In this document: positions 30,136 to 62,000 of the stretch, piece by piece | Layout: the number at the start of each line of letters is the position of its first letter | Position numbering within the stretch: the stretch's first letter is position 1 | DNA from: Nemertoderma westbladi | Taxonomy: Eukaryota > Animalia > Xenacoelomorpha | Direction: 5' to 3' | DNA: 64,000 nt | Assembly: GCA_032718475.1 (NCBI GenBank) | Contig: JAUCBJ010002788.1 | Span: 38,910 to 102,909 of the forward strand | Notes under the pieces: model-generated | Database searches by the model: none | What the model saw: only the letters and a program-made list of their open reading frames with translations | Told to the model about the DNA's origin: nothing | Translations under genes and position numbers: made by a program

Positions 30136-30720
30136 TGTCGGGGGTATTTAACGGGTCATTTAAGTGACTTAAAAGATTCTCAAAATGAGTTTCAAGTTTA
30201 TCCATTGGTATAGGTGCTACATTGTTTGGTTTGCCTTCTCTCAGCAAAGTCCATGGTGTAATTTCAGTTTGAGCTATACGTTCTAGAAGGCGATCTTCCT
30301 CATAAATTTCACGTTTGTATTTCAGCAGTTTTTTGTATTCACGGCGTGCTTCCCAGAAAATGTCTTTGTCAGTAGTAGAGAAATTCCTTTTTGAGAACAA
30401 ATGCAGCATGTGTAGTTTGCGATCACGACATTCATTGTCGAACCATGGTTTTCCGTTTTGAGGTCGTCTTATCGACTTTGGTAGAACTGAGTCTGTTATA
30501 GCATCAGTTAAACATCTGTTGGCAACATTGATATCAGCGTTAACAGCTAGTTCGAAGGCTGCTACTGAAAGGAGCGGGTGGTCTCGTAGTTTGCTGGTGT
30601 TCAAATTCCGCGAAACTAGCGGGGCACGCTGGTTGAGTGGAGACATACGACCGCAAACGATCGCAATGCAAATTTCAATGCAGAGCAATACCAGCTGGGC
30701 CCTGCGTTCCAATCATCTAG
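30135..30720 (-). pseudogene. LINE ORF2 fragment (endonuclease-RT linker)
   Basis: KPWFDNECRDRK...ARREYKKLLKYK...PWTLL...IPMDKLETHFENLL. Confidence 0.7.
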
Positions 30721-31199
30721 CTGGAAACGCAGCGGCCAACGACACCGTCACCTAGCAACAAGAACCACATCACACGGGTTTCATTTCAAGCTGTGTGAAA
30801 ATAATTCCTACCACGATCCATGTATTGACTGTATATGTCGTTTCTGTCTGCAACCTGCAAAGAACCGATACCATGCCCTAGTCTGCGACAAATGCCCAAC
30901 AATATCCACCTTATCCTCTCAATAACTAATTATTTTAGACCATATATTAATATTATAATAATTTATAAATTTTAGATTCCGTGCAATTTAATATATAATT
31001 ACAGCACTTAGGTTTTTACCATTTACCCCGACTGGGGGGTGTCCAGATTAATTAATAAAGTAAGTGTTTTTGAAGCGCTACGAAGCAAGCACCATTCTTA
31101 ATCCAATTACTCAAAGAAAGGTTGCTGAATGTAGAGATTCTTAATAACTTCCGTCCGGTATTCAATTTTGTATTCTTATCCTAAATAATAGAAAAAGTA

Positions 31200-31530: not shown

Positions 31531-32338
31531 AAATGTTACGGTAACGGCGTTGTGTAGATGGGCGCCGTACCATAAACGTGAGTTTGCGCGACTACGCGGC
31601 CATCCAGGTAGGGAAGGTTCCCACTGTTAATGAAAGACATGATGTTTCTGTAGACTACATATGATATGTATATTGTTCGTATTGATCCCCCCCCCCCCCC
31701 CCCCCCACCTCTAAAATCTACAAATTTTAACGAAAACAAACGTCTGATGTTTACGTAGATTTCACTCGTCTGAATCCGACTGCAAAAAAAATTTTGAAAA
31801 CATGAACTGGTGAGGTGGTTATTTGGCAGCACCAAAATTACAAGTAGTGAACAATTTTCATAAAATTTGAAAGTTTAAATTTTCGGCTAACTGTTTTTCA
31901 ATTCAATTTTTCTGAGGCGCAAGATCCATTGGAAAATATTTAAAAATTATCTTATTACTATAAATGGGTGTTTTAGACCTCTACATAGGCAAAAAATGAA
32001 AGAAAAAAAACAAGTAACCAGCACTTTTCAGTTTGAACACAAAATTTTGAATTCACTTATACGATGCTATAAATTCATATTTTCCGGTTTTCTTGGGCGC
32101 TGATTCTAATGGAATACATTTCTAATTTGCTAGATCATTGCCACTCGTATTTTTCTGCATAATTTGGCAAATTTTGGTGCTAGCACCAAATTTCGTACCC
32201 ATCACCAAAAAGTACAAGTTTGAGATTGTCCAATCTAAATCTAGTGCGGTTTTTATTGATTCCATCGGATTCAGAACCCTCATAAGCCCGTATAACGCAA
32301 GAAATAAGATGATACTATCTATTGATCAATTTGTTTAT

Positions 32339-33841
32339 TGTAAAGGCTTTTGAGGATATAACTAGTTATTTTCCCCGCAAAGTACTCTGTAGGTGTTTTA
32401 GCGGACATAAAAAGCCGTTTTCTTACTGTGTAGGTGTTTTACTGGACATAAAAAGCCATTTTTCTGTATGTGTACTTTAGCGGACATAACAAGCCATTTT
32501 GTGCCGCAATACGCCAAAATACTCTTAATACAGTGTAGTTCAGATGACGACATCTATCAGCTGATATGTCGATGTGGAGCTTTTTGGCTTTATTTGTTCG
32601 GCTCGCTCGACCAATCAGAGCGATTTTCACTTTGTGTTGGACCATGCCTACAGAAACTCACGCAATTCAGTCAGTGTGTATCTTTCTAAGCCCAGAACAC
32701 CGGCTTAGGATTCTTCTGTACTTCTGTGGAAGTTTCAGACTTTGACCTAAACCTCAGAAACATCAGATGGCTTTGATCAAAGGAACGTAAAACTATTTAC
32801 GCAGCACACCGCCACATCGCGGCATCACGCAACGCGATTCAACTACACATACTGACTGTTCACCGCATTATTTGATTCTGTTATTAATTGGTGTTACTGT
32901 GTTATATTGGTATATATTGCTGATATATTTGGAGAATACCGATGAATAATCATAAAACCCTCAATCTCTTTGATTACTAAAGGTTAGAGGAACAGGTTTA
33001 CCGGTAGCAACTGCGACTTACATTATAGTGGTTTTTGTGTGAATTGAATGCTATTTCATAATCCCTACATGTGTCTACTACTAGGATCGGCATGCTGCAT
33101 TGCAGCTGCATTTTTAAGAATGCTGTGCCGGCTTGTCAACAAAATTGCACCGCCACAACTCCCTATCACCCATGACATTTGCTAGATCATCCGCATCTTT
33201 AAGGCCAGTGTCCTTTAAGATGCGTCTCAAGAAAGTCATGGGCTGTCCACCTTGCTTATTCGCTCCATGAGGCTGCCAAAGTACAAGATTATGCACTGGC
33301 TGGTCCTCACGGCGAAAGCAATGTCCTGCAAAGCGGAGGCGATTTTGTTCTAGTGTCAAGCTTGGTCAAGACATGTGTCAGTTGCGATCCTCCTTATATA
33401 TGATCAAATTCAGTGACGGTCGGCAGATCAGTGCGCAGTAGTATGAACTAGTGTGAAGTCGTGTGAAGTAGTGTGAAGGTTAATAAAGCATCTCCTAAAG
33501 AATGCGCTTTTTACGAAACTCAGTAGCCATCCAGTTGTGATTAGTATAAGTCATAACTCTATTTTATACCTAAAGCGCCACGTCCTAAAGGAACTGTTAA
33601 TATTTCCCCGAAAGTGAATAATATTGTCAGAGATTATATATTAACGATCAATCGAATAATACAGTAGGTCTACACTGCAATCACTATCAAAGCATCCGAA
33701 TCCAGTCTCCCTTAACTGCGGGTGAATGGTCGCACACAGGCTGGCTTCGGCTGATGTACCTTCAGTACATTAAATAATTGATATACAAAAAGACAATTAA
33801 AATTAGCTGGTTAAACTGCAAAAGGTCTAAAAGCGCGAACA
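32339..33841 (+). repeat. 5' LTR of the BEL element (1199 bp plus a 304-bp RTE insertion)
   Basis: tgtaaaggc...gcgcgaaca; about 20 substitutions relative to the 3' LTR, counted by eye. Confidence 0.95.
33076..33370 (-). mobile_element. Short 5'-truncated RTE copy inserted in the 5' LTR
   Basis: Nearly identical to about 18817-19105. 9-bp TSD acatgtgtc (33067-33075 and 33371-33379); single acatgtgtc in the 3' LTR at 44934. Confidence 0.95.
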
Positions 33842-35810
33842 TTAATAGTTTTCAGTTCTGATTGCAGTGTAGGCAATAAATATATTTTGTCTAATGTTCT
33901 GGTAAGAACATTAATAGTTTTATTCTTGATTGCACGTAGGCAATAAATTCGAAGGTACCGGTCGAACGGTAAGCTGTAGGCCTAACTGCCCAACTGCCCG
34001 AACCGGTACTTACAGGTACAGCAGTATTATTCGATTTTGATAATTATATACCGGTAGGTCTTGATATTTAATCAGGGACGGCCGCCCTGGTTTTTTATTG
34101 GGATTTTACTTATTTCTGTCAGTTTTATTTATCTGTAAGTTAATATTGAGCAGAAGGCGTGTAAGCCTGCTCAGATTGTACAAATAATTTGTAGGCTAGA
34201 TTGTTGTCTGACTGTTGTTAAGTTTGAAGAGATTGCAGTGTGTGTAGATTGTATGTGCGATAAAGTGCTAGTTAGGAAGGTAGGGGCATCCCGTATTGTA
34301 AGGTAAATCCCCCCCGAAAGAATAAGTCGTACTACTCGGTTAGAACGCATATAACTAACCATTTCGGAGTCTGCATATACTGTAGTTTATTTAGGCTTGA
34401 TAGTAGTCTGCCAGCGTTTGGTTTGTATTTTGTTTGTGTAGTCTGTACGGGTAGCGTAATATTTATTATTCAGAGTTTATGCAATTATTCGCAATATACA
34501 CAACCCCAAGTTTATTCCTACAGTAATTGTGCTTGTTATATATACCGTTATAGTTAAATTAACCCCGATACTACATCAGGGCTGCTTGGCGTAGGTAAAG
34601 ACTGGTGATTTTATGCTCTAGTCACTCCAGCAGATACCGTGGTTCTTTTAGCTGTACAAGTATTTTTAACTGCTGGTTATTTGTTGTATAAGTACTTGTA
34701 CCTAATTTAGGGTTTAGTGTACAGTGTTTTCCGAAGGTAATTAGTGTATAGGCAGTATATTTGTGTTGTAAAGTGGTTAATAGGCACGTTAGCTATGGTT
34801 GGCTGCTGTAATTAACTTCTAGGGTACATAACGTAGTACTTATAGAGCTGTAAGCTAGAGACTATAAGTCGTCAGACGGTGGTATTTTCTTATCTAGACA
34901 ACGCAATATATTTACTACTGCATTATTATTTTCAAATACCGTAGTTTCCTGTTTGTTTGTAATAACCAGAAATTCTAACCCCTTGTTGGGCTGGTTTGTA
35001 GATTTCTTGTAAAATTAACCCTAAAAATTCGTACGTGTAATTTTTTGTGTTTATTTAGAGATTGTAATCTCACCCCGTAATTGTACGTAAGTTGTAGTAA
35101 TAAGTAACTTAGTAAATTAGAATTATTTGTTTTAGTGTCCAATAAGTAGCACTCCACTGAGAGCGTTCAGCTTCTGTGAAGTGACTCCTTACCTAGAAAT
35201 AATAAGATTTATTTCGAATATTGTCAAAACCCATTAAACTGGTATATATATATATATTATAAATCAACTCAAACCGATTTATAAAATAGTAGGCCTGTTA
35301 TACATAAATTAGGTCTTAATATCAGTTGGACTACTGCTTAAATAACGGTAATAAAGTGAAGTAAAGTAAATAGGTAACCCTAAAATTCAGAAATTCAATT
35401 ATTCTAAAATAATTGACATACCGGTATTTACGATAGGCTTATTATATTTATTCCATAAATTTAAGCTGAAAATATATACCGGTATTCTGTAATTAATTAT
35501 AGTCTATAATTATACTTATATATACACTATAAGTGTAAGCTGTATACCGGTATTCACGTTAGGCTTATTATATATCTATATATTTGCGCTGAAATTATAT
35601 ACCGGTATTCTGTGACGAACCCTAATATTCGATCCGTAATAATACTTATATACTATAAGTGTATACCGGTATTCTAATATATTGTATATATATCGCGTTA
35701 CATTGAGTAACGATATCGGTAATTAATTACTAGGCTTATAGTTGATACTGAATTACTAGACTTACTTTAACTGTAGTTATAGTAGTAGGCATTCAACTGT
35801 ACAATCAAAC

Positions 35811-38800
35811 ATGTCTGACACAAAACAAACACTGTCAGATAGTCTCTTAGAAAGTGCTAGAATGAGTGTTAGACAGGGTCTTAAAAAGATCTGGGACTCA
35901 GCTAAGAGTATAGAACGTCTGAGACCAAAGTCCAAGTCCCCTCCTACTGTAAGCAAGGTCATCCCTATAGTAGTAGTGTCAGACCCTAGGCTAGTAGAGC
36001 ACCATAGGTCTATCATAGGCACTAGGGCTCAAGTCAAGCGGGACCAAGAGGCAGCTGTTAAACAGCAGCACCAGCAACACCCGAGCCGAGAACTTATTTC
36101 TCAGCGGTCCGATAGCTCCAGTAGTTCAGATACTGTAGAGTTGACACCCGAGCGCGGAGCAAAGATGGCAGAAGCAGTTTATTCGGATCCACTTCTCATT
36201 CTTCCTGAAGCCGTACTCACTAGAGTATTGATTGCGGTGGAAGAACATCAAATGGATTGGGCGAGAAGTGAGCGATCGACCAAGGACAGTTATGCGGGAT
36301 ACACGAAGGAGGAACTGAAGTCTATTGTCGAGACGCAATGGAATTTCCCCGGACCCGGACTCCCGTTTAACTTATCGGAAGCTGCCTGGGAGGACTTATA
36401 CAGGATGGGAGTGACAAAGGACACTAGTGATCCAGCTGTGTGGAAGAGGTCGGCAGCAGGATATGTACAGGGATTCTTCAGCTCTTTGGAGCGATTAGAG
36501 GAACAACTGTTTCAACAACACCAAGGACCTCAAGAGCAGGGAGAGCTGCTTTATCAAGTTCGAGTAAGAATCCTAAGAATCAGACTACTCCTATCAGCCT
36601 TTGAGGAAGCTTCGAAGAGAATCCAAGACACGTCGTTGCAAGTTGCTGTCAAGACTTGGTTCCAACGGGTGAGTCTCAAGGTTCAAGGAACGACCCAGTG
36701 GAAATTTCAGCTGGCTGAGCGCTCAACCCACGGAGAATCAACAGACGCTACCTTTTCTCAAGTGGAAAGCGAAGCGCCATCAGAGAAACCTCAGAAGAAG
36801 GATGCCATTGACATCTATCTGTCAGACTATCAACAATTTATAGGTGACGAAGAGTTGAGGAGACGGCTGGCTGGACGTCGCCCTAATAGTGAAGGAGCCA
36901 AGTTTGTGTTGGACGCATTAGATGCGGAAATGTTAGCTGCGAACCAAGCTAAATTTGATGAAAGTAGCCGCATCGCTAGGGTTCAAGAAGAACAAGTAAA
37001 GAAAAAACGTATAGAAGACAGAAAGACAGCAGCGGCGGCAGCGGCAGAGGCAGAAGCGGAAAGAAAAGCGGCAGAATTGGAAAGAAAAGCGGCAGTGGCA
37101 GCGGCAGAAGTGGAAAGAAAAGTGGCAGCGGCAGTGGCAGAAGTAGAAAGAAAAGCGGCAGTGGCAGCGGCAGAAGCGGAAAGAAAAGCGGCAGAAGCGG
37201 AAAGAAAGATAGCAGTGGCAGAAGCAGAACGGAGGGCGTCTGAAGAGACCACCCAACTAGAGTTGGAAAATCTTCAAGAGAAGCAAGACTACATAGATAA
37301 ACAGAGAACAGCTAGTCAGTGGCAGATGATAAGTCGATCTACTCCCAAAAGACAGGGATTTACATCATCTGATAAAGGCGATACAACAGATCCTGAAGGC
37401 GGAGGAAATAGATCTCGTCTAAGTAGGCGTAGAAGAACGCCCCACAGTCAGAAATTGCCTAATTTGCCCCCAGCTGTGAGAAAGCAACTAGCTAGCACAG
37501 ACTTAGGTAGTACAGAACCCACAGACCAAATTATTAGAGTAGAAAGACTCCCTACTATAGTGGATGAACCTGAAATAATTAGGCCTGTTCTCGAAGCCAC
37601 TCCCTCTGTAATAGAGACCACTGTACTTCCAGAACCGAACTCTAAATTCCCTTTGCACAGTACTAAACTACCTGTATCCAGTGGGACAGTTCCTCAGTCA
37701 ACTCCGGTCCTGGACGCCGAGCGAGACATTAACAATTTGTCACCCGTCGTCCCTCGTCTACCCGCTACTATGTTGGCGGCTCCCGCTTCGGCGGTAGAGT
37801 GGGTGGATGAGCGACGGCGGGGGATGGATATTCTCCTCGGGCAGATGGAGGAGAATCAGGCACGCTCCTCCCAGCAGGTCCGAGAGTTGGAGGGGACTGT
37901 TCAACAGTTAAGGGGAACAGTAAGAGAGAGTAGGTTAGAATTGCAGGAAGTGCAGCAGAGTATCGCGTTAGAACGCGATAAGTTAGTAAATCTACAAAAG
38001 GATATACCAACACCCTCTGTAACAATGTGTCAACCTGTTAGGTCTGAAGTATTTCATGCACAAGGTGTGGAGCCTACACGCATCTATACTGCTAATGAAG
38101 TAGAAACTCCTATAGTGTACCCTATTAAGGGTAACGATAAACCTGTTGATAATGGTATTTCATATAGACCTGATAATAATCCGAGAAATTTATATACCGA
38201 TAACTCGATATTAAATAATACGATGGCCCAAGAAAGTTTTAGGCGTCAAATGGCTAGAACCGAAGCTCGTCAAGCGGTAAAGGTGGGAGAGATCGTCAAG
38301 TTCAATGGAGATGAGATGAAATGGTTACCTTTTAATGAATATTATAAAGATAACATACAGAACTCTGTGCTATCTAACGGAGAGAAACTTAGATTCCTCA
38401 TCGAGTGCTTGGAAGGATCTCCCAAGTTAATGGCGTTAAAGATTATTGGACATCCAGATGGATTAAGACAAGTTTGGGATACACTGAACATCAGGTATGG
38501 TAATAGGAATAACATAGCTAGGTATTTGTATGCAAAATTGGTAGCACCCCGAAAGTTCCTTAGCAGCGGGATTATAGAGTTTTCCGATGAGATTCAGGAG
38601 ATCTGTAGACAACTAGACTGGTTAGGTAAGTCTCATGAATACCAGAATTCTATGGTTGTAGGAGCCTTAGCATCAGCTTTGCCAAAGAGTGAAGTAGGTA
38701 CTCGCTGGGACAAAAAGGTTCTCTATTTAATGGACCAACAACATAGAGATCCAACCATGACGGACCTTCTGTCATTCTTAAACTGAGAGGTAAGATTACA

Positions 38801-40841
38801 ACTCCTAAAACAGTCTAGAGAGAAGACTCCTGAAAGTGAGGTAAGTGAAAATTCCGTTTCTAGGCGAAAAGTAACACCAGTGTGTTATACCGACGACGGC
38901 AAAAGCCAAACCTCCCACAAGGAGAACAGCGGGAAAGACACCGAAAGATCTTACTATGTCAACAACGCACCTAAAGACGTAAGTAAATTTAAGTCTCGAA
39001 CCAGTGACAGGAGAGAACAGACAACAAAAACTCCTCCCACGTCTCCTAAGAGAATTCATGGAAGAAAGCCCGAGGAGAGAACAAGTGTGCACAACACTAC
39101 ACAAGGTTATGTAAGTAACATCAAGCCCAAATGTGTATTGTGTGATGGGCCCCATTGCTTGAGTGGGTGTGATGAATTCTTAAAGAAATCCCTAAAGGAT
39201 AGACGTGATGTCATGTGGGATAAGAGGTTGTGTTATAATTGTCTCAGACGAGGACACCAACAGCGGACCTGTTACTCAGATGCTAGGTGTGCTAAGTGCG
39301 GCGCGAAACATCATATCTTGCTGCACACAGAATTTGAAAGAACCCGCACGAGTCAGGTAAGTGAGCCCGAACTACATGTCCAATTCAGTGATGTGAACGA
39401 CACTGACCTCAGTTCTGAGATGGAAGGATTCTACATGGATGAATTCTCCGACGAAAACGAATCCTGTTATCTAATAAACACCGCAGTGTATCGAGCACTT
39501 ATGTATGAGACTGAAACTGATAGTGAGCTCCCCCTAACTATTCCAGACCGACAACCATCTTGGAAAGCGCCAACTTCCAATGTAGGAATCCGGGAATCTC
39601 CCGTAGTGCAGTTGAGAGTCCACGGGTTAAAAAAGAGCTATATAGTGAATGCCCTCCTTGACTCCGGCAGCACAGGAACATTCATCGACAAAGAACTAGC
39701 CGAAGACATCTTTGCTGGACAACCCAAGTTCCGAACTAAGTTGAACCTTTCAGGAATTATGCAGGTTTGGAAATCTACAGTAGCTACAGACTACTATGTA
39801 GGCGCATTGTCCACCCCCCAGGATGAACTAGGAGAACACAGTATAAGGTCAGTAAAAATGGTGGCGATAAAGAACTTCGCTACCAGCCAAGTGGAACCTT
39901 ATAACTGGGATGAAGACGATTTCACCCAGCAGCATGAGATACCTAGATTCAACACTGACTACCCAGGGGTACAAATACTCATCGGCCAAAATGCGCATGA
40001 GGCGCTTGAGACATTAGAGAAACGGCCTGCTCAACTGCAACCACTGCAAACCTATGCGGGAAGAACTAGAGTAGGTTGGTACTTCACTGGACCTTCCCGT
40101 AGGACACTCATGGAAAGGCTACCCAAAGATCAGGTCCATCAGGTGAGTGAATGGGAAGAAGACATCAGTGAGGGAGAGACAACCACAACTGAGGGAACAC
40201 CATACTCCTCAGATAATGACGATATTAACTCTAATGTAGATCAATGGAGACATTGCCCCGAGACGATTAATCTAGCCGACATCGCTTCCAGAGGAGCAAC
40301 TCCTCAAGAACTGACAGATACTCCAGACTGGTTAGGTGGACCCGACTTCCTAAGTAAAGAAGATGAATGGCCTCCCCATCTTACCATGGCTGAGATTAGA
40401 CAAGCCAAGGGAGCGGAGAAAGTCAAACCTAAAACCCGGACGAGTAAATCAAGGTTATTTAAACCCGTGATAGATCTGTCTGTACTACACATTGCCAAGG
40501 ACGACGTTGTGGATCTAAACTCCCCCACCGCGAACAGATCTGTTGTGGAGATCAGAGAGAGAGACTGGAGATCTGGAACACCAGACGTCTCGCAGGGACT
40601 CTCACCTCTCCTGCCGGGAGCGATGGACCACTGTAGCTCCTGGAATCGGCTTTGTAAGGCCGTCGTGTATTTGAAGCGATGTTTCTATCGTCACTATTCC
40701 AGGACGAAGAGAAAACCTGGAATTGATTCGAAAATCAACAACTCAATCGCCCAGTTGGTCGTTTATGTTTACAGGAAAGAGACCGAGAACTGTCCGGAAA
40801 CTATGGAAGGCAAGATACTCTTCCCACGACGACCTCCCTAA
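35811..40841 (+). pseudogene. BEL/Pao gag-protease polyprotein with one in-frame TGA (38784-38786) and RT/RNase H core/integrase missing
   Basis: DUF1759-like KFNGDEMKWLPF...LSNGEKLRFLIECLEG; three BEL knuckles (CVLCDGPHCLSGC, CYNCLRRGHQQRTC, CAKCGAKHHILLH); protease NALLDSGS; then directly QWRHCP..NLADIASRG..WLGGPDFL. The two tracked ORFs are in the same frame. Confidence 0.9.
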
Positions 40842-42587
40842 TCCAACAAACATCTAGGGACTCCCCAACGTAACGGCGTCTGGAGTGGGTGTGTGACTAT
40901 ATTATTTTATATTTGTTTATTATTTTTATATTTATGTATGTATTATTATGTAATTTTATTATAATCGTTTTCTTTAATTTTATTTAGTAGAATGTTATTT
41001 TAGCGATTATGTAGTAGATTAGTGCAATATATATTAGTGTTTATTACTTAATTACTTATATTATATATATTTAGTGCAACAGCAAGAAATAATTCTTTTT
41101 CTCTTTCCTTACTGTCCGTATTACATTACAAATGCGTGACTACAGTAAGATGAAATGTCCGTACTTCTTAAAGTACAATAAAGCTCCTACTATATTCAAG
41201 TATTATTGGTAAGTAGAGTATTAGGAATGCAAAATTCAGATCCTCGTGTCTCGGCTAAACCAAGCTCTGGGTAGACCTTGGAAACGACTTGCCCCTTCTC
41301 ACTGACATTGCTTCTTGCAATATTGCTCTCATACCGTATATTAAATAATACATATAGTAGCGTGATGTCCCTTTAACAGTAGCGTAAAATGCAAAATAAA
41401 TCTGTTAAACCCTTTGACCATCTGTAATTCTAGTCGATTAAGATATCGCGGCACCCACCGATATACTTGAAAGACAAATTTCTAGAATCAGTGGTTAACG
41501 TTCCCAGACAAGTTCTGGAATAAACTGGTGCCCATCTTAAATATTAACTATTAATATTTATATAATCTGTCAAACAAATACAATAGAGTAAATACTTACA
41601 AGTTAACTCTAGAAAATCTATAAATTAAAATCTGTTAAATTTTAGATCCTTTAAAATTCTAGTCGATTAAGATATCGTAGCACTTACCGATACTCTTAAA
41701 AGGACAAATTTCCTAGAATCAAGGATCCCAGTTCCCAGACATGCTCTGGAATAAAATTGTGCTTATTCCAACATTAAATAATAAAATTTACGGGAATAAA
41801 TTTAAATTCATCTCTTTTAATGAATTTGATAAATTGTCATTTTTATACAATTTATAACATTCCCAAAATTCCATTAATTAATAGATCATGGGAGCGGAGA
41901 TTCACCCTATTAAGTGTATTAGTGTGCGAGAATCTCCAATATATAGTCAATAGCCGATAAAATTCATAAAATCATGTATAAAGGGGAATATTGACAATTA
42001 AAGAATTACTATTAAATAGCATCCCAGATCTGTATGCATGAGAATTACCCTAATTATACCGCTAGCTTTCCATAATGTCACCATAGCAACAACCACGCTA
42101 GAATTAGAAGTGAGTTAAAAGAACAATAAAAAGCTTGCCCCATTGAATAGCATACGGAATAAATAGCGCACTGCTAGTATCCAGAGATACATAATAATAA
42201 CGTGGCATTCTGGAAGGCACTTGACTAACGGACAAATGGCCCGAATGTGTACAATTAGTGACAGTTGTGTGGAATTTGTGCGTTTATAGGTGAATGTTAC
42301 TACTAAAGTGTGTTTACAGTAGCGAGTCGCAGTTGTGAAAGTAGCCCTAACCCTGCAGTAAGAACCTGAAGTAAATCTAAGCCCTTGGGACGGACAGTGG
42401 AGTGACTCGCGCTGGTTGTTGTTGTCGTTGTGCAGCTACTACGTTGGCGATAGACACAGCGGCGACAGTATATCAGCGTTGAGGATCTTGCGCTGTCCGG
42501 GGGCATTGAGGGGTAGGCAGCAATGACCGCTAGCCTAATTATGATTAATTATAATATCGATAAACTCATATAGCAGCTATGACTTAG

Positions 42588-44127
42588 TTGATAGAAGATG
42601 ATCTTGGTATCAGGGAGCGATATACCCCACCATTACAAGCGTTTGTTGATAGTTTAATACGCGGCGATGTTAGTCAACCTACTACGGAGGACGATGGCCG
42701 TTATATCGAGCCGCCAATGTCAAAGGAACAACTCACGCGTGAATTGGACTATAGAAAATTCACCGCTCGCTATACGCATCATAATGGTACGTATATGGAC
42801 TTCTTAACTACTGGTCATCCTATCGATTTACATGATACGGACGATGTCGACACCGAAAGGGAAATGATTCTATTTAAATATCATACCCAGCGGAGTCGGA
42901 ACAATAAACTGAGAATCGAACACGAAAATTCTATTCGAAACCAACTCGAAAGAGAAGATGTTAAAGAACCGGATAAATGCAGTAACTTCAACGTATATTT
43001 GGAATTCTTGAGAGAGACGTTGTAAAACTGGAGAAAGATCACCAGCGTTTCCCCTACAAGACGTGCGTCTTTGGTATTATTACGATGAATGCCCTAGACC
43101 CAACCAATAAATGGAAAGACAAACATCCGTGGAGACGTTGCGCTAAACACAGTTTTACTCGCTATATTTACGGGAGTTTCAAGCGAAACTTGTTCGATGT
43201 ATCACCTACGCTCGCTCGACTCAAACGATCCTTAAATAAACCCATGATCAGAGTTCCGGAATACTCGGTCAGACCTCCTCATTCCCTGGTGAGACCTCAG
43301 ACTCTTGATCCTAATAGTATCACGGATCCTCCCAAGCTTACTCACTGTTCAAAGATCTAGTGTTACCCGAACAATTAGTTGGTGGCACTCCGGTTGTGGG
43401 CTCCCTAGATATTCGCCCATCTTACCTAGCCGGATTGGGACGCAGACACCTAATATCGCCATTCAACCATGTAATCGTCCCTGTTTAACCCGATATAATC
43501 TGTCGCCGAGGTGGAGGAGAGAGATATATGAAACGCGTTGGACACTATTCGTCAAAAGATCGGAAAAGGAACCTACGATTGTTTGGAGGAACGTGAGTTG
43601 CAGCAGCAAGTCCAAGCGGTGAACGAGGTGGCTTTATCTCAGTTCGATCGAGAAATCCAGAATCTCTAAGAAGATATCGAACTTGGACTACCCTACACTC
43701 TAAACGAGTTTTAGACGAATGCTTCCAACGACAAGCGGAGGAAAATCAGCTCGAGGAGAAGCATATCGATTTCGACAGAGCCCGAGAACGCGAGTTGGAA
43801 AGAACCATCAAACCGAGGAAATTTCTCACTACACACGGTCCACCTACCGCTCTTGTGCAGACGAATCGTCAGGGACCAGTAAGAGTTGCTGTCTTGAAAC
43901 GCTCTCTGAAGGTTGTTCGACCTCGTTCCACTGAGGTTGATACCGATCAACCGAATACCTCGACCGGCAGATACACTGACCGTCATTCTAAACCTTCCGA
44001 TGCAATTGTATTGCACCCTTCACCCAGGAGTTATAGCCCTCTTAATAAAGTGGCTCGCCCCAAAGAGAAAAGGACTCTTGCTAGCCTCAAAAAACTGCGT
44101 AAACGCCGTTCGTGTAAGAAGGACTAA
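42588..44127 (+). pseudogene. Decayed accessory ORF of unknown family in the env position of the BEL element
   Basis: Consecutive + strand ORF pieces joined by frameshifts; peptide-level similarity to 48262-48345 and 61545-61945. Confidence 0.7.
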
Positions 44128-44205
44128 CTGTTTAGAGTATTTTTATATTTTAGAAACTGTGATTTTTTATATTTTATAGAATTAAATCCCATTTTCTGGG
44201 AGCGG

Positions 44206-45404
44206 TGTAAAGGCTTTTGCGGATATAACTAGTCATTTTCCACGCAAAGTACTCTGTAGGTGTTTTAGCGGACATAAAAAGCCGTTTTCTTACTGTGTAG
44301 GTGTTTTAGTGGACATAAAAAGCCATTTTTCTGTATGTGTACTTTAGCGGACATAACAAGCCATTTTGTGCCGCAATACGCCAAAATACTCTTAATACAG
44401 TGTAGTTCAGATGACGACATCTATCAGCTGATATGTCGATGTGGAGCTTTTTGGTTTTCTTTGTTCGGCTCGCTCGACCAATCAGAGCGATTTTCACTTT
44501 GTGTTGGACAGTGCCTACAGAAACCCACGCAATTCAGTCAGTGTGTATCTTTCTAAGCCCAGAACACCGGCTTAGGATTCTTCTGTACTTCTGTGGAAGT
44601 TTCAGACTTTGACATAAACCTCAGAAACATCAGATGGCTTTGATCAAAGGAACGTAAAACTATTAACGCAGCACACCGCCACATCGCGGCATCACGCAAC
44701 GCGATTCAACTACACATACTGACTGTTCACCGCATTATTTGATTCTGTTATTAATTGGTGTTACTGTGTTATGTTGGTATATATTGCTGATATATTTGGA
44801 GAATACCGATGAATAATCATAAAACCCTCAATCTCTTTGATTACTAAAGGTTAGAGGAACAGGTTTACCGGTAGCAACTGCGACTTACATTATAGTGGTT
44901 TTTGTGTGAATTGAATGCTATTTCATAATCCCTACATGTGTCAGTTGCGATCCTCCTTATATATGATCAAATTCAGTGACGGTCGGCAGATCAGTGCGCA
45001 GTAGTGTGAACTAGTGTGAAGTCGTGTGAAGTAGTGTGAAGGTTAATAAAGCATCTCCTAAAGAATGCGCTATTTACGAAACTCAGTAGCCATCCAGTTG
45101 TGATTAGTATAAGTCATAACTCTGTTTTATACCTAAAGCGCCACGTACTAAAGGAACTGTTAATATTTCCCCGAAAGTGAATAATATTGTCAGAGATTAT
45201 ATATTAACAATCAATCGAATAATACAGTAGGTCTACACTGCAATCACTATCAAAGCATCCGAATCCAGTCTCCCTTAACTGTGGGTGAATGGTCGCGCAC
45301 AGGCTGGCTTCGGCTGATGTACCTTCAGTACATTAAATAATTGATATACAAAAAGACAATTAAAATTAGCAGGTTAAACTGCTAAAGGTCTAAAAGCGCG
45401 AACA
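44206..45404 (+). repeat. 3' LTR of the BEL element (1199 bp)
   Basis: Direct repeat of the 5' LTR; contains ~39-bp tandem repeats, a CCAAT box and AATAAA. Confidence 0.95.
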
Positions 45405-45904
45405 TTTATTTTCAGAAATTTAGTGCTGGCACAACAATATTCACCCACATGCAATTGTTACATATTCCATTGAATTCAGAACCCTCACAAACCCGTATAA
45501 CGCAAGAAACAAGGTGATACAATCAATTTATATATTTGATGGTTTTCAAAATTTGGTGCACCAAATTTTGCACCCACTTCAAAAAATACTAGTTTAAGAT
45601 GTCTAGTTAGATAATTATTTATTCTATTAAATTTAGAACCGCCATAAACCTCTAAAACGCGGGAAATAAGTTGTCACAAGCATTTGAACTATTGAATAGA
45701 TTTTCAAAATTTCGGCTGCACCAAATTTTGCACACAGCACCGGAAAATACAAGTTTAATACGCCTGGTGCATCTGGTATATATTCCATCGAAATCAAAAC
45801 CCCAAATAACCCCTATTATAGCGCAAAAAACAGGTTTAAACAATCAATTTACAAAATTGACACATTTCAAAATTTGGTGCTGGCACCAAAATCCACATAT
45901 ATAT

Positions 45905-48350
45905 CTGGGTAGACCTTAGAAACGACTTGCCTCTTCTCACTGACATTGCTTCGTGCGATACTGCTCTCATACCCTAGGACTAAATTATTACACAGGGGAG
46001 GGTTGGGACATTTGGCATGTTTTTGTCTAAAATGCTCATACAGTATCTTCCAATCTGTTTACTCATTTGTTTAATATGAGTTCTCATTTTGTCCATAATT
46101 TAATGGGCTATCTTTCAGTCATAGTTTGTATTGATTTTAAACAGATTCCGAATTGTTAGGGTCCAATTTGTCGATGGAGGTCAAACATGCCAATTCTCCC
46201 AACACGAGGGGACATTTGGCAGAGAGGACAAGGATATTTGGCATCCTTTTTCTAAACGCCCGTTTCTATATGCATTTACAGCCTAATTTGCAAATATTTA
46301 TCCTATATCTGGTATAGTAACTATCAGCTGACAAGCTCCATTTACTTATTCTGTTAATCTTCTCTAAGTTTAACTTCAAGATTTACTTTTCGCGTAATTC
46401 AAGGAATTCCCCGGGCCGATGATGGTTCCTTTCCGTTGTTGTTTGCTGTAGGGTAGGGGTTGTATGTGGGGAGTGTTCAAGGGGTGGTATATGGGGAGTG
46501 GTCAAGGGGTGGTATGTGGGGAGTGTTCAAGGGGTGGTATATGGGGAGTGGTCATGTTCAACTGGATTCTTATTAAATTCGTAGCCTGGAATAAAGAATT
46601 TAGGATGGGGGGAGGTTGGGGGTGGGGGTGTTCACCTAGATTCGTATTAAATTCGTAGCATAGAAAAACGAATTTAGTACGGATTAGACTAAAATAGTTG
46701 AGGCTAATGCAAAATGACTAAAATGTTTATAATAATGATAATAATATTCAAGTAGAACTATAGCAATTAAACAATGTAGTAGTGCAATAATATGAGACTC
46801 ATTGAAATATAAAAAAATTCAGTGCACTAATAAGAGACTCCTTGAAATCTAGCTAATTACCCCACTGCGATCCTGGTAGCTGTAGGCCTACCAGTTTGAT
46901 AACGTTTTTAGACAGTTTGAAAGTTAGAAGGTTTTACAGTAATAATTCGTTTGAGGGAGTATTTAAGTACCAATAGTCTAGGGACAAGAGTGGTGGCCCT
47001 AAATGAGAGGTTCCTAAATCAAACTAATTTTTAGCAAACCGAAAAGTCAGAAAATGTTGGTTAGGCCTACTGGTACACCAAAATAATAAATCAATAATTA
47101 ACCAGATTAATGATCAGGCTGTCAGCCACTTACTGAACAGCGAACAGTACCTGTAGTAACTAAATAAAAAAAAACTGGTGGTGACTTTGGTGAGGCATAC
47201 AGGTTTCTGGGCTACTTCTACTTCAGCACATTAGTGTTTAGGGCTTAGTACCGGTATCTAATAATGCAGTACTGCACTGCAGTGAAACGTCAGTACAACT
47301 AGACACCAATAGGCTACTGGCAGACTGTAATGATTACATTGAAATGCGAAATATCCCTAGCACGCAAATGCCAAATGTCCCAACCTGGGGAACTTTGATA
47401 AATATGAAAAATAAATATACAAGATTATTGTAAAGACATATTATTCTGTCAACTTTAACATAATCCCAAACAGTTGACGATCATTTTCATATATCCAAAA
47501 GTACCAGTGATGCTACTTATGAAAAGGGGGTTTCCTGAATACAAAAAATCAAAAATTATCATTTTGATCATGTTGATCAATTATCATGTTATCCAGAGAA
47601 TCGCCAGTTTCATTAAATTTAATAATTTTTTCCGTTTCCATATTCAAATATAGTATGATAGGTTAAGTAAAAAAAGTTGTTGCAATCCACATTCAGGAAG
47701 TCACCCAAAAGGCAGGCATGCCAAATCTCCCCACGTGCCAAATCTCCCTGGTCTCCCCTATAGCAGGAAATGTCCGTATAACAGTAAATCTGTTAAAATA
47801 TTTTAACAAGCTGAAAATTTAGTCTATTAAGATTTCGGAGCGCCCAACGATATAATTAAAAGGCCAGTTTTCTAGAATCATTATTTCACGTCCTCGGACA
47901 TGTTCTGTAATTAATAAACAACTCAAATAAATAATAAAATCAAATTTAGCGGGAAAATTTTATTAATTCGTGTCCCCTCATGAATTAAAATAAATTGTAA
48001 AGACAGGCAATTTTTTTTTTAATCCTTAAAATTTTAGGTAAAATAAGTATCAGGGTTTTGCTTCTTTTGACTGTATGAGGCATACTCTAACTCTACTGCT
48101 CGTTTCCCAAAATGTCACCGTAGTAACTAAAACGAATAAAACAAAATAAAACCAACAAACCAATAAGAACATAGTTATAATTAACTTATTGCAAACATTG
48201 TGTACAGTATTTTAGGATACTTAACGAACTGACTTAATGAACTGACTGTTTCAGATAATAAACGTTATATAGAGCCATTGATGAACGGAGAACAACTCAA
48301 ACGTGAATGGGATTATCGGAGATTCACTGAGTTCTATACCCATCGGGATC
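45905..48350 (+). mobile_element. Diverged relative of the BEL 3' internal region (non-coding leader plus start of the accessory ORF)
   Basis: 45905-45990 matches 41267-41352 and 47760-48130 matches about 41355-42090. 48262-48345 encodes RYIEPLMNGEQLKREWDYRRFTEFYTH. Confidence 0.8.
45994..47760. mobile_element. Non-autonomous TIR DNA transposon (AGGGGAG...CTCCCCT ends)
   Basis: aggggagggttgggacatttggca and tgccaaatctccctggtctcccct; cleanly interrupts the homology to about 41350. Confidence 0.7.
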
Positions 48351-49189: not shown

Positions 49190-52100
49190 GAAGGAAAAGT
49201 AATTATTAACAATGTTGAATTAAAAAGAAAACAATCGATAAAATTTCTTGGACTTTACATAGATGAACATCTTACCTGGAAACACCACCGGGAACATATA
49301 CAACACAAAATTAGTTGCAACTTGATAAATAACAAAATAAAAAACTTCATTTCACCACACGCACTAAAACTACTCTACCATACGATGATCGACCCATATT
49401 TACAGTACTGAAATGCTGTCTGGGCAGCAACAATATACAAGTCAGAATCCAATACTTCCACAAACCAACACAGAAATCACTACAGGTGGAGGAGAAAAGC
49501 AGAAAAACCCTACAACCACAATAAAATCAATCCAGAGTTTACAAAACAGGGCCATAAAATCTGTGCAGTCTAAAGGAAACGTAGACTTCCGACCACTCAC
49601 TATTACTTCAATCTTCAAAAAACGAGAGAAAGCCGCCCCAATATTAGATTATAACAACAACATTTCCATTGGGTAAGAAAGTGGAGAAGAGCCAGGCCCG
49701 ACTCTCAATTTTTTAGTTTATATTACGCGATCAATTTTCACTCATCTCGTCATGAACACAACATGTATGTAAACTTTTGATAAATTTGTTGGCTATGCGT
49801 TTGCGGCTGTTTGGGCGGGGTGTGGTAGGCCTACACTTTTCACACTGAAACATTTTGGTTGTGAAATGTTCAGGGCACAGCGATCAGAGATATTTCATAT
49901 ATATTTTATTATGAGAGGAAGAAGAACATACAACGTTATTTACTATATTATATGTAACGAAATAATTGTTTTTGGGTTTGGAAGCCTCCCCAAAGAGTTG
50001 ATATACGATTATATTTAAAATTATTTCCATGGTCATGGTCATTCACCCGTCTTTAATTAGAAATTTGTTTGCATGAAAGACAGTTTAGTTTAGTTTGGTT
50101 TTTACTGATTATTATCTCTTATCTGACTGGGGTAATAATAAAGGATAGGATAAATGGAAGCAAAGTGTGACAGTAACAATTATTTCCCTGACAACCGAGC
50201 ATGTCTTAAGTATACGATATCTAAAAGGGGGAAGTTTGGATTCACTGCATAAATGCAGTTCACCAAACTTCCCCCGAATGCACACTGTAACTTCCCCCTT
50301 CCCCCAAATATCCACTGTTAAATTAATTTGAAGCGATATAATAAGTACAAAATTGTGCAAGATTTTAATTGTGTAGTCCATTTGTTATTTGATCTCTATT
50401 TATTGTTTAAAGTGCATTTAATATCACACTGGTTTTTTAGAATATTACAACCTTATGTTTTATTTATTAACCCAATCGAAGCCTTAATAAGGGCCGCTTA
50501 TTTGTACGCATATCCCTAATGCGCTCAGTATGAGCCAAACAACATATTAATATGAAAATAAAGTATCTGCAAAGAAAAGAACCCAATGCTATATAATTTG
50601 ACCTTATTAAAAAATTTGCACTTTTGCACACTTATTTGTACAAGTGCACTTCAGCAGATCGTAATGGTGGTTCTTATTTAACAAACTTATGTTTATCCTC
50701 TACCGATCTACGATGGTGTATGATCAAGTGTCAGTCACTAAAAGTGTAAAAAATCTAATTTAATAAATCGCGACATTTGCGATTTTGGACCATATTCATG
50801 GGCATTTTAATTCACTTTATATACATAAAAAGTTAAACAAATGTTACGATTATAGTTAGAAATCACTCCAAACTACATTTTAATCCAAAAAATAACATTC
50901 TACGATGAATGGAACTAGAAATAATAGTGTTTGAAATATCGAAAAAATGTGTACTTTTTAAGTGCATTATGCACTAGTGCACATGCGTTTTCCCAAGTTG
51001 TATCCTATTTCACACACTACAATCTATCCTCTATGCAATGAAAAAAGTTTCAGATCAAACGGCCCAGTAGAACAGAAGTTATTGATGTTTAAAAATAATC
51101 ACTCGAAAATTTCAAATTCTCTTGGTCACGTAGTCTAGTGGTAATCAATCACGTTAACGATACTTAAGTTCGTGGGTTCGAAACCCAATATGACCATTCT
51201 TAATTTTTTGCAAAAAAAAATATTTTTAATTTTTGACTAAATTTCGGTTCTGGTGCTCCAAATTCAATAAAATTGGTATATTCTTTGCCGTAATTTTTTT
51301 TTCTATCTTTTGAGAGGGGGTATTTTTGGCCCCAAAAAAAATGAAAAAAAAGGGCCAAAGTTACGCGATATTTTTCGACCCTTAAAACTCGTTATTTTAA
51401 TTATAAATGTTAAGAAAAAAGATAGTGGAGTTAATTTGCTACATTTTACAGGAACTTTTGGCGCAAAAAGTTAAATTATAATGTAATGGCGATTTATTAA
51501 AAAAAAAATTTTTCGTCCCTTTTTTATAAGTAGTATATTTCACACGATCGTCTGCCGCTTCAGTTATATAATAGCTATGGCGCTGTAACTACCGTTGAAA
51601 GATAGATAATTTGACGCTCTATAAGACTGTTTAAATAAGTCTCCCAGACCTTATGTATTTTTCGAGCTAGACGAGTTCCCGCGAAGCGAGTTTGAAGCGT
51701 GAAATTATAATTTGGGCCCTAATTTTTTTAATATCGTTTGCGCGGCAAAACCAATCGAATATTTGGATTCCCCGTATCGATATTAACCGTATAAAATGTA
51801 CTTTAACCTTCAAGAGTCAAAAATAAAAAAGTTGTTAGTTATAAACGTTTTATTATTTTCTGGCCCTTTTTGGACCCCTTTGCCTACATATTTTTTGTAC
51901 CCCCATTCGATAGGAATGTAGCCCCTGTGGTCTTCTACGCTTTCCGAAAAAGAATTGGCAGATTCCTACTAGCGTTGTCGAATTAAAAATTTTGGAAATA
52001 ATAATTATGTAAAAAAGATGGAAAAAACGGACAAAGTTACGGCCCCTTTTTCCACCCGAAATATTAATAAATATCTTACCCCCATTCGATACGAAGGTAG

Positions 52101-52900
52101 TACCACTCTTCCCCTTTCCAACCGCGTTAATTTCGTCCCCGTACGATTAATATTAGCCGAGTTAGAGCGGATCCCGCAAAGCCATTTTGTCCGTTTTTTC
52201 AACTTTGACGGACAATTTCGGGAAAAGGGCGTGGTAATCTTTTTTGAAAAAAAAAAACGAATTCACTAATTAATCCCTTCTATCGTATCCCGGCGTCGGT
52301 TAAGCAATAACCTAGGGTTTTTTCGAGCCACTGTAAAGCGCCTTTCAAAAAATTTTTAAAATTGTCGAAAAAATGACGGTTTTTTGTCCGCCGTGTCCGT
52401 CGAGGGGATAGATTTGCTAATGTTAGAGTGGCTAATATCTTAGAATTCCGAGTCGCTCCCCTGGTGCGAAAATAAAAAAAATTGGTCTGTTCCTTCATCG
52501 AAAAGTCCCCCAGAATCCCAAGTTAACCTATATAGTTAGCGATGGCCTGCGGCTTTAGGAGCGGCCGCGGTATTCACCTCCCTCATAGCGGCCGCGGCGG
52601 TGTTGCGTCAAATGGAGAAATATTTATCCCACCAAGTCGCGATATTTTGCTATAACTACTTACATAAATTACTACCACCAAACATCCTACCAACACTACT
52701 TACACTCACATCTACCACGCACAATCACCGCACAAGAAATGCTACTAACGGACAATGTACTGTACCCCGTACAAGATTACAGATTGCCAAACAATCCATC
52801 AAAGTCAGGGCCCCGTAAGTCTGGAATGGAGTCCCCGAAACGGTGCGGCAGGCACAATCTATTAGAATCTGCAAAATATAAATTACATTCATATCTGGCA
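49190..52900 (+). pseudogene. Crack/L2-group LINE RT C-terminus, split by ~3 kb of insertions
   Basis: IKFLGLYIDEHLTWKHH, LKTLYHTMIDPYLQY..AVW and LQNRAIK (49190-49620); resumes as HNHRTRN..PRTRLQIAKQSIKVRAP*VWN (52610-52900). Confidence 0.75.
51124..51196 (+). pseudogene. tRNA-derived sequence (tRNA-Val-like pseudogene or SINE head)
   Basis: 73 nt; GGTCA/TGACC acceptor-like ends, A box TAGTCTAGTGG, B box GGTTCGAAACC in a TGGG/CCCA stem. The anticodon stem does not pair. A T6 run follows. Confidence 0.55.
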
Positions 52901-58700: not shown

Positions 58701-58917
58701 CAATTTCCGGGGATACGACAATTAAAGCCGTTGTTTCGAGTCCGTCATAGGAGATTATCGAAGGCACATTCCCGCGATTTGTAGCGGGCTTTGGTTCGCG
58801 GCTCGCAGTTGAGGGTTGTCGATGGGATACGGTAGTAGATCTGCATCGCGGCCCCCCATAGCGCTGTACAGTTTGTGGCTGAACATTGTGTCCGTGACAA
58901 CCGCTGTCCGGTAGAGC
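55749..58917 (-). pseudogene. pol: Gypsy Pol (protease, RT, RNase H, integrase) with frameshifts
   Basis: [70 protein letters not shown]; frameshifts near 58880 and 56340. Confidence 0.92.
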
Positions 58918-61414: not shown

Positions 61415-62000
61415 TATCCAAAGATATCCGCAAGTTGTTCACCCCAACCCAATGATGGAATTAGAGTGCTTATATTTCACGATGATGTATTTGATAGCGA
61501 ACCGACCACTTTCTGTTATACCAGATAGTTTCGAACAGATGGAGGAGTATTGTAAAGCGGGAGAGCGATCACCACCTGACAACTAACAGGTAGGGACATA
61601 CGTCTTTGGTACTACTGCGATAATTGTCACAAACCTAATCAACAGATATCGCGTGCTGTTCACCCGCATAGAAGGTGTATTAAACACAGCGGTGGGTTTG
61701 AACATGGGTTGTTTGATGGACAACTTCATGGTGATAGATTCAATCATTGAGTCGCCAAACCCTTAATCAGAGTTCTGGAATACACTGTGCGACCTCCACA
61801 TAAACCAGTCAACCCTCAATTCCTCGATCCTCAAAGTCTCATGGATCCACCCAGGTTTTAAAACCTCTTTCAAGACTGGGTGTTACCTGAACAGCTAATT
61901 GGTGGAGGTCAACCTGGGCTGAATATCGAAAAAGTTCGCCCCATTAATCTCTCTAGTGGAGCACCTGGATGCACGTTTTCTCATCCCATCCAGGAAGGGT
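61415..62000 (+). pseudogene. Continuation of the second copy of the unknown accessory ORF
   Basis: CKAGERS, DIRLWYYCDNCHKPNQ, HPHRRCIKHS, KPLIRVLEYTVRPPHKPVNPQFLDPQSLMDPPRF and LFQDWVLPEQLIGG are collinear with about 43020-43390. Confidence 0.8.

What the first reader, a model, noticed from the sequence alone, without database searches (positions are those of the whole stretch)
42588..44127. Unknown ~500-codon accessory gene in the env slot of a BEL/Pao element, conserved in a second copy
Seen: a frameshifted ORF lies between the truncated pol and the PPT, and I see no signal peptide or transmembrane stretch, so it does not look like Env. Its blocks (RYIEPPMSKEQLTRELDYRKFTARYTH; CKTGERS; DVRLWYYYDECPRPNQ; HPWRRCAKHS; KPMIRVPEYSVRPPH..PQTLDPNSITDPP; LFKDLVLPEQLVGG) recur in the same order in a diverged copy at 48262-48345 and 61545-61945. 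There the amino acids match clearly despite many nucleotide changes. The second copy reads WYYCDNC...RRCIKH, a candidate CxxC...CxxH zinc site. A Q/E-rich stretch and a basic tail (LKKLRKRR) follow in this copy. Inference: a once-selected, possibly nuclear accessory protein of this BEL lineage, for example an anti-silencing factor or transactivator. I do not recognise the family.
Basis: partly seen in the sequence, partly recalled or inferred. Interest (0 to 1): 0.8.

Follow-up and report, generated by a model that had tools for sequence, protein, structure and literature searches.

The report
Orphan accessory gene in BEL retrotransposon
A very abundant jumping gene that has lost its own copying enzymes carries an extra, now broken gene with no recognisable relatives; the gene shows the signature of past selection and likely encoded a soluble regulator, not an envelope protein, that helped the element's RNA get expressed.

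Summary
32339-45404 is a BEL/Pao LTR element (TG..CA ends, 5-bp target duplication, LTRs ~1.9% diverged) with Gag and protease but no reverse transcriptase or integrase. Between a 1.7-kb spacer and the 3' LTR lies a ~515-codon ORF (42579-44127) with at least six lesions. Its blocks recur in order in a diverged copy; 84 of 132 codons give the same residue, dN/dS ~0.18, and the third-position excess survives a phase-selection null (P=0.007). No membrane segment is seen. No relative was found in Pfam, PHROGs, PDB or 1.84 billion protein representatives; folds were unusable. New here: contigs from four public runs cover the whole element, ORF included, at far above single-copy depth, so this is a high-copy pol-less family. 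ORF1 is nearly intact while ORF3 is wrecked, which suggests ORF3 is not needed in cis. Not shown: that the second copy belongs to a BEL element (no LTR or gag beside it), expression, zinc binding, or any function. Best guess: a nuclear, trans-acting RNA regulator like C. elegans CERV (~35%). Architecture parallels pol-less Athila. New variant of a known kind.

The parts
32339..33841 (+). 5' LTR (TG...CA), carrying a 304-bp non-LTR-retrotransposon 3'-end insertion at 33067-33370; 5-bp target duplication at 32334-32338
33842..35810 (+). 2-kb AT-rich 5' leader (GC 0.335), no long ORF
35811..40841 (+). ORF1, Gag-protease polyprotein: long N-terminal region with no family match, DUF1759 (about 38301-38690), three Cys-His knuckles, LLDSGS...LIG protease ending about 40094; one in-frame stop at 38784, no frameshift
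   Evidence: (PF03564 E 8e-12)
40095..40373 (+). In-frame deletion junction: about 45 residues replace residues 666-1226 (RT and Peptidase_A17/RNase H) of the sea-urchin BEL protein P0004, followed by a short post-RNase H remnant; integrase and DUF5641 are absent
40842..42578 (+). 1.7-kb AT-rich non-coding spacer, partly shared with copy 2
41266..41338 (+). 73-nt spacer block 92% identical to copy 2 (other spacer blocks 65-71%); candidate cis element or recent exchange; no Rfam match, no unusual fold
42579..44127 (+). ORF3, about 515 codons, broken: a stop just after the start, frameshifts near 43020, 43110 and 43340, and at least two more lesions between 43390 and 43715
42696..42779 (+). Conserved block 1 of ORF3 (RYIEP...YTH)
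43021..43386 (+). Conserved core of ORF3 with the Cys/His cluster and the KP.IRV.EY.VRPPH / LDP.S..DPP / VLPEQL.GG blocks
43532..44127 (+). Q/E-rich helical-looking stretch and basic C-terminal tail (19 Arg + 14 Lys in the last 137 codons; ends LKKLRKRR..); no counterpart in copy 2
44206..45404 (+). 3' LTR, preceded by a short purine tract (about 44196-44205) and followed by the 5-bp target duplication 45405-45409
45904..45991 (+). Copy 2, first spacer piece; joined to 47759 in contigs of two other runs
47759..48349 (+). Copy 2, spacer pieces and ORF3 block 1 (start of the ORF is missing)
61535..61915 (+). Copy 2, ORF3 conserved core, separated from block 1 by about 13 kb of nested repeats including a Gypsy element

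Best explanation
The ORF is a third gene carried by a high-copy BEL/Pao family that lacks reverse transcriptase and integrase; it was under purifying selection, and it likely encoded a soluble nuclear protein that would act in trans on the element's RNA, helping unspliced genomic RNA to be exported and expressed, as CERV does for Cer1. Shown: element anatomy, loss of RT and integrase, selection on the ORF between two diverged copies, no membrane segment, high depth over the whole element in other runs, and a lesion load far higher in ORF3 than in ORF1. Inferred: (1) ORF3 needs its own spliced or subgenomic mRNA because it lies 1.7 kb behind the ORF1 stop; (2) the Cys/His core binds zinc and nucleic acid and the basic tail is a nuclear signal; (3) the protein is shared among copies, so copies with a dead ORF3 still move while Gag-protease is kept in cis; (4) RT and integrase are borrowed from an autonomous BEL partner. 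Confidence in the shown part (element-borne, once-selected, non-Env gene) is about 0.8; the score below is for the RNA-regulator mechanism.
For: Position and features match CERV as described in PMC10309623: env-slot ORF, not Env-like, cysteine cluster, basic NLS candidate, lineage-restricted. dN/dS 0.18 and third-position excess. No hydrophobic segment. Long AT-rich leader and spacer in the genomic RNA. A 73-nt spacer block at 92% identity where synonymous sites are 66% different could be a protein-binding element. LTRs differ at 23 of about 1,200 sites with no small indel in the two aligned blocks, ORF1 has 1 lesion in 5,031 bp, ORF3 at least 6 in 1,549 bp (binomial P=0.001), so ORF3 was probably dead before this copy's last insertion. 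The stop after the start is absent from nearly all depth in all four runs (table 3), and 5 of 6 scorable contigs have span lengths that fit copies without this copy's frameshifts.
Against: No homology or fold links ORF3 to CERV, Rev or any RNA-binding family. One cysteine of the proposed site is Tyr in copy 1. The 73-nt block has no stable structure (z 0.66 and 0.76), no covariation and no Rfam match; it could be gene conversion. No transcript or splice joint was observed. The excess of lesions fits passive decay equally well. One contig (X1 record 2) does not fit the frame arithmetic, and none of the 12 indel rows shown of 219 lies in ORF3. The basic tail is seen in one copy only. Copy 2 cannot be tied to a BEL element.
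Confidence: 0.35

Rival explanations
1. ORF3 is a DNA- or chromatin-acting anti-silencing factor or LTR transactivator (VANC-like or Retand TRP28-like in role) that binds a sequence in the element and works in trans.
For: Same soluble, basic, Cys/His anatomy; trans action fits the lesion pattern; the conserved unstructured 73-nt block suits a DNA site as well as an RNA site; CpG is not depleted in ORF3, spacer or LTR (o/e 0.95-1.24) but is in ORF1 (0.70).
Against: No match to any DNA-binding family; the CpG contrast has simpler readings such as a different origin; described anti-silencing precedents seen here are plant elements.
Confidence: 0.22
2. The spacer and ORF were captured from another mobile element or host gene; the selection seen between the copies predates capture, and the BEL family only carries a decaying passenger.
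For: Copy 2 has no LTR or gag in the window, is low-copy (X3 contig depth 41.8 versus 5.8 next door) and runs into a HECT-like pseudogene. ORF3 differs from ORF1 in CpG content (Fisher P=1e-4). ORF3 is heavily broken in a young insertion.
Against: The ORF sits sense-strand, ending 78 bp before the 3' LTR, in a family with very high depth in four runs; other copies lack at least one lesion and mostly fit open frames; 1.3 kb of non-coding spacer is shared with copy 2; copy 2 is visibly fragmented by insertions, so missing LTRs are expected.
Confidence: 0.2
3. ORF3 is a cytoplasmic particle or RNP accessory protein (Gag partner, RNA chaperone, or germline-localisation factor) rather than a nuclear regulator.
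For: Charged helical segments (low-confidence model) and a basic tail also fit RNA chaperones; the family keeps Gag and protease.
Against: Particle proteins usually show cis preference (own knowledge), whereas ORF3 is lost from a copy that still transposed.
Confidence: 0.15
4. ORF3 is a highly diverged Env or small fusogen.
For: It occupies the env position, and a few BEL/Pao elements have env (PMC3118150, PMC554778).
Against: No signal-like or transmembrane window in coding frames, few cysteines and one N-glycosylation sequon per piece tested, no viral match.
Confidence: 0.04

Closest known systems
CERV of Cer1 (C. elegans Ty3/Gypsy-type LTR element; PMC10309623, passages and section 15 read)
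   Same: [quoted passage not shown]
   Different: CERV is shown to be nuclear, spliced to Gag exons and needed for gRNA export; none of this is shown here. No sequence or fold link was found; the host element here is BEL/Pao and lacks RT and integrase.
Pol-less Athila elements of Arabidopsis (PMC2410132, passages read)
   Same: LTRs plus gag plus an env-slot ORF without pol; both ORFs under purifying selection (omega about 0.2-0.4 there, 0.18 here); moved in trans.
   Different: Plant Ty3/Gypsy lineage; unrelated protein; here a protease and an in-frame post-RNase H remnant are kept.
Autonomous BEL/Pao elements such as the Diadema setosum protein P0004 and Sinbad
   Same: DUF1759 Gag, triple Cys-His box, LLDSGS...LIG protease, TG..CA LTRs; 24-28% identity.
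   Different: RT, Peptidase_A17/RNase H, integrase and DUF5641 missing; 12.8 kb against the usual 4.2-10 kb (PMC3118150); none of the 7 BEL proteins matches ORF3 (best E 3.3).
Other extra ORFs of LTR elements: bdelloid ORF3s (PMC5408684, abstract and first fifth read), Retand TRP28 ORFs (PMC11963269, passages read), BEL env genes of Tas, Cer7 (PMC554778, passages)
   Same: [quoted passage not shown]
   Different: Those are recognisable (GDSL esterase, DEDDy nuclease, fusogen, PF04195) or antisense; this one is sense-strand and matches no Pfam family.

Membership tests
BEL/Pao (Belpaoviridae) | LTRs with TG...CA ends and a 4-6 bp target duplication | tested here: met
   norm from abstract of PMC12440569
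BEL/Pao (Belpaoviridae) | DUF1759 Gag with triple Cys-His box | tested here: met
BEL/Pao (Belpaoviridae) | LLDSG...LIG aspartic protease; nearest proteins are BEL polyproteins | tested here: met
   (7 of 7 hits carry PF05380, PF03564, PF18701)
BEL/Pao (autonomous) | Reverse transcriptase and Peptidase_A17/RNase H | tested here: not met
   only a short remnant; so a non-autonomous derivative
BEL/Pao (autonomous) | Integrase with DUF5641 | tested here: not met
   no match inside the element
BEL/Pao clade (Sinbad, Suzu, Sailor etc.) | RT or integrase phylogeny | not testable with these tools
   both domains are deleted; no Gag tree was built
Env / fusogen | Signal peptide and transmembrane anchor | tested here: not met
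   hydropathy only; no dedicated predictor; frames between 43390 and 43715 are uncertain
Env / fusogen | Sequence or fold match to a viral fusion protein | tested here: inconclusive
   no hits but models had pLDDT 40-51
CERV-like regulator | Non-Env ORF between pol and 3' LTR with basic NLS-like motif | tested here: met
CERV-like regulator | Invariant cysteine cluster | tested here: inconclusive
   Cys/His cluster in both copies, one Cys not shared
CERV-like regulator | Sequence or structural homology to CERV | not tested
CERV-like regulator | Spliced mRNA, nuclear location, need for gRNA export | not testable with these tools
   no run on record as RNA; contigs only
Pol-less Athila | gag plus env-slot ORF without pol, under purifying selection | tested here: met
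   (architecture only)
Pol-less Athila | Plant Ty3/Gypsy lineage | tested here: not met
   Gag and protease are BEL/Pao

The most novel reading that the evidence does not exclude
ORF3 founds an undescribed protein family: a Rev/CERV-like or anti-silencing regulator of BEL/Pao elements, old enough for synonymous sites to be near saturation between lineages. The family works as a cooperative, multipartite retroelement in which abundant pol-less copies keep Gag-protease in cis, share ORF3 in trans, and trade these for RT and integrase from rare autonomous partners, with the 73-nt spacer block as the response element.
Probability: 0.2. Interest if true: 0.75.

Novelty: new variant of a known kind. 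Interest (0 to 1): 0.5.

Why it matters
BEL/Pao is a little-studied LTR superfamily, and the extra genes of it that I saw described are envelopes. A selected, non-envelope third gene would extend retrovirus-like regulatory complexity (so far CERV in a Gypsy-type element, Rev in lentiviruses) to a further lineage. An abundant animal family that drops RT and integrase but keeps Gag-protease and a third gene parallels pol-less Athila in plants, and makes the question of whether non-autonomous copies pay their way directly testable: intact and broken copies coexist, so selection per gene can be measured within one genome. The value is limited by the lack of any functional or structural evidence and by the fact that orphan ORFs in LTR elements are common.

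Tried and rejected
Whole genome: none held, so no genome-wide tblastn. Homologue searches with the first 145-codon piece: 0 of 152 longer and 0 of 11 similar-length candidates. HMMER over 1.84 billion representatives with the 89-position core profile: 1 hit at E 2.8e-4, rejected as an HNH-repeat protein scoring by summed repeats (hhalign probability 28%). JGI metagenomes and IMG/VR: nothing; these collections need not hold the host, so this is no evidence of absence. Pfam, PHROGs, PDB sequences for ORF3 pieces: nothing at cut-off. ESM Atlas: no usable hit, best 0.82. AlphaFold2: pLDDT 50.6 and 40.2, unusable; Foldseek on the first gave no E below 0.5. Expression: no RNA holder listed. Run X5 (RNA is a guess) has depth that follows X1 over coding and non-coding repeats alike, so it was rejected as evidence of transcription. 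Run X4 is relatively deeper over ORF3 than ORF1 (X4/X1 0.017 versus 0.004) but equally so over the neighbouring host repeat (0.018), and contig depth cannot rank genes: rejected. Rfam and folding of the spacer block: nothing. The sigma-70 scan is irrelevant to an animal element. Fusion of copy 2's ORF to the HECT-like gene: considered, not supported; about 490 bp with stops in all frames lie between them. Earlier findings of this scan: none. Literature searches showed no paper on a non-env third ORF or a Gag-protease-only family in BEL/Pao; one search returned 0 papers; subscription journals and Repbase are not covered, and no supplements were read.

Full report
Observation. Three-frame translation of 42400-44200 shows every quoted block, spread over three frames. 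tblastx of the element against the rest of the window finds them again, in order and on the same strand, at 48233-48349 and 61542-61906. Non-coding sequence upstream is shared too: 41266-41363 with 45904-46003, 41619-41837 with 47777-47998, and 42035-42132 with 48072-48169. Nothing in gag, protease or the LTRs matches near copy 2. Homology ends near 43390, so the Q/E-rich stretch and basic tail are known from copy 1 only.

The element. LTRs are 32339-33841 and 44206-45404, with TG...CA ends and a 5-bp target duplication; they differ at 23 of about 1,200 sites (K2P 0.019) apart from a 304-bp insertion in the 5' LTR. The element sits inside a roughly 1-kb host repeat whose two halves rejoin. ORF1 (35811-40841) has DUF1759 (E 8e-12), three Cys-His knuckles and an LLDSGS...LIG protease, motifs described for Sinbad (PMC554778, passages). 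All 7 database hits to the knuckle-protease region are BEL polyproteins, best 28% to a sea-urchin protein; this does not identify the host. Against that protein, residues 666-1226 (RT and Peptidase_A17/RNase H) are replaced in frame by about 45 residues, a short remnant follows, and integrase is missing. This is a non-autonomous BEL derivative of 12.8 kb, longer than the usual 4.2-10 kb (PMC3118150, passages).

Selection. Over 132 codon pairs in six gap-free blocks, 84 encode the same residue; mismatches fall 35/34/62 by codon position; Nei-Gojobori dN/dS is 0.18 and pN/pS 0.36 (bootstrap 0.26-0.48), against 1.07 and 0.94 for the shifted sense frames. Because the blocks were chosen by protein similarity I repeated the count on a frame-agnostic DNA alignment (48, 50, 74 mismatches of 158 each; Fisher P=6e-4) and against a null in which each block picks its best phase (62 observed, null mean 54; P=0.007). 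The longest block alone gives pN 0.32 and pS 0.55, so the true ratio may be nearer 0.4. This shows selection somewhere on the path between the copies, not necessarily inside the present family.

Is it a family trait? Contigs of 4 of the 7 listed runs were laid on 38500-46500. All four cover ORF1, spacer, ORF3 and LTR. Summed depth in X1 and X3 is 1e5-1e6 over ORF1, spacer and ORF3 and falls to hundreds beyond 45976. Summed depth is no copy number, but a single ORF3 contig in X3 has depth 3,384 against 5.8 for a unique-looking contig in the same run, so hundreds of copies at least; thousands is my inference. The pol deletion is likely shared: depth is even over the junction and 0-1% of laid contigs in X1 and X3 run on into unlike sequence, but only 24 of 2,645 loose ends were shown and no shown piece bridges the whole junction. 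The stop just after the ORF3 start is private: 578,351 of 578,555 depth in X1, and all depth in X3, X4 and X5, read otherwise. Table 8 showed 32 of about 80,000 pieces; 10 overlap ORF3. I scored the 6 that lie where the frame is clear: 5 have span lengths that fit copies without this copy's frameshifts (one of them only weakly, the break lying near its end) and 1 does not. Left out: two that run into the uncertain region, one crossing the ORF end, one starting upstream of the ATG (not computed). Against this, none of the 12 indel rows shown of 219 lies in ORF3.

Copy 2 is low-copy: a 663-nt X3 contig matches it exactly at depth 41.8, and contigs in X1 and X3 join 45991 to 47759, so the 1,767 bp between are an insertion absent elsewhere. 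About 13 kb of nested repeats, including a young Gypsy, split its ORF. Downstream it passes into a unique-looking HECT-like pseudogene (WWP1 HECT E 0.002; all 25 PDB hits are HECT ligases; no Pfam hit). Whether copy 2 is a BEL relic or the donor of a capture is open. ORF3 has CpG o/e 1.24 against 0.70 for ORF1 (P=1e-4), which hints at a separate origin.

Cis or trans. ORF1 has 1 lesion in 5,031 bp. ORF3 has at least 6 in 1,549 bp: four anchored by copy 2 or the start codon and at least two more. Binomial P=0.001. With LTRs only 1.9% apart, ORF3 was probably broken before this copy last inserted. Inference: ORF3 is dispensable in cis, either because other copies supply it or because it no longer matters. 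Assembly error is unlikely to spare 5 kb of ORF1 but was not excluded.

What the protein is. Not Env by hydropathy: best 19-residue window 0.17 in the first piece and at most 1.06 in anchored frames; higher windows lie in frames that copy 2 shows to be non-coding. No relative was found in Pfam, PHROGs, PDB, the 5.8-billion word search, JGI metagenomes, IMG/VR or the ESM Atlas. The exhaustive HMMER search of the core gave one spurious repeat protein. Only pieces were searched, and only the core exhaustively, so remote homology is not excluded. Folds were unusable. The core holds a Cys/His cluster (CxxC, then H, C, H in copy 2; first Cys is Tyr in copy 1): a zinc site is plausible and unshown.

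Mechanism. I commit to a soluble nuclear regulator made from a separate mRNA and acting in trans on the element's RNA (0.35). The precedent is CERV: a non-Env ORF in the env position, lineage-restricted, with a cysteine loop and a KRKK signal, needed for export of unspliced Cer1 RNA (PMC10309623, passages and section 15). The long AT-rich leader and spacer and a 73-nt spacer block conserved at 92% (other spacer blocks 65-71%) fit a response-element model, but the block has no notable structure or Rfam match and may be a recent exchange. Rivals: DNA-level anti-silencing or transactivation (0.22), a captured passenger (0.20), a particle accessory (0.15), a diverged Env (0.04). It works like CERV at best; it is not shown to be a member.

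Comparison. The architecture repeats pol-less Athila, whose gag and env-slot ORFs stay under purifying selection (PMC2410132, passages). Extra ORFs are also known in bdelloid LTR elements (PMC5408684, abstract and first fifth), Retand (PMC11963269, passages) and Arabidopsis elements generally (PMC13547354, passages). Passages of PMC8556966 and the abstract of PMC12440569 added nothing on BEL extra ORFs. Eight searches showed no report of a non-env third ORF or a Gag-protease-only family in BEL/Pao; most results were seen as listings only, Repbase and subscription journals are not covered, and no supplements were read. Rev, VANC details beyond, and cis preference of particle proteins are from my own knowledge.

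Verdict. Real, selected, element-borne and unrecognised; function untested. New variant of a known kind; interest 0.5.

Noticed in passing
window 62400-63529 (+): Intronless, broken HECT-ligase-like sequence directly after copy 2; best PDB match WWP1 HECT E 0.002, all 25 hits HECT ligases; unique-looking depth; no Pfam hit.
   Followed up: partly
window 55374-60658 (-): Young Ty3/Gypsy element, LTRs 98.8% identical, RT, RNase H and integrase by Pfam, nested in a long inverted repeat 54194-61416; low copy by contig depth.
   Followed up: partly
window 33067-33370: 304-bp 3' end of a non-LTR retrotransposon inserted in the 5' LTR only, 99% identical to 18816-19106; a very recent insertion.
   Followed up: partly
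window 35811-38300 (+): Gag has about 830 residues before DUF1759 (about 170 in the sea-urchin relative), with an Ala/Glu/Arg/Lys repeat near 37010-37250 and no Pfam match; could supply an N-terminal exon to ORF3 as Gag does for CERV (speculation).
   Followed up: partly
window 41266-41338 and 45904-45976: 73-nt non-coding block 92% identical between copies whose synonymous sites are 66% different; no structure or Rfam match.
   Followed up: yes
window 41398-41560 and 41628-41790: Direct duplication (77%) inside the spacer.
   Followed up: no
window 40095-40841 (+): The post-RNase H remnant is kept in frame behind the protease although RT and integrase are gone; it may have a role of its own.
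   Followed up: partly
window 40418-40745: Contigs in all four runs skip about 312-326 bp near the end of ORF1: a subfamily with a shorter ORF1 end.
   Followed up: no
window 42505-44373, run X4: Contig depth relative to X1 is 4-fold higher over ORF3 than ORF1, but as high over the neighbouring host repeat; unexplained, not usable as expression evidence.
   Followed up: partly
window 49623-52632: 3,010-bp high-copy non-coding insertion, skipped by contigs in X1 and X3.
   Followed up: no
window 10210-13801: 3.6-kb tandem array, about 82% self-identity.
   Followed up: no
window 29800-31000 (-): Degraded LINE-like reading frames upstream of the host repeat; no Pfam hit for the 300-codon piece.
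   Followed up: no
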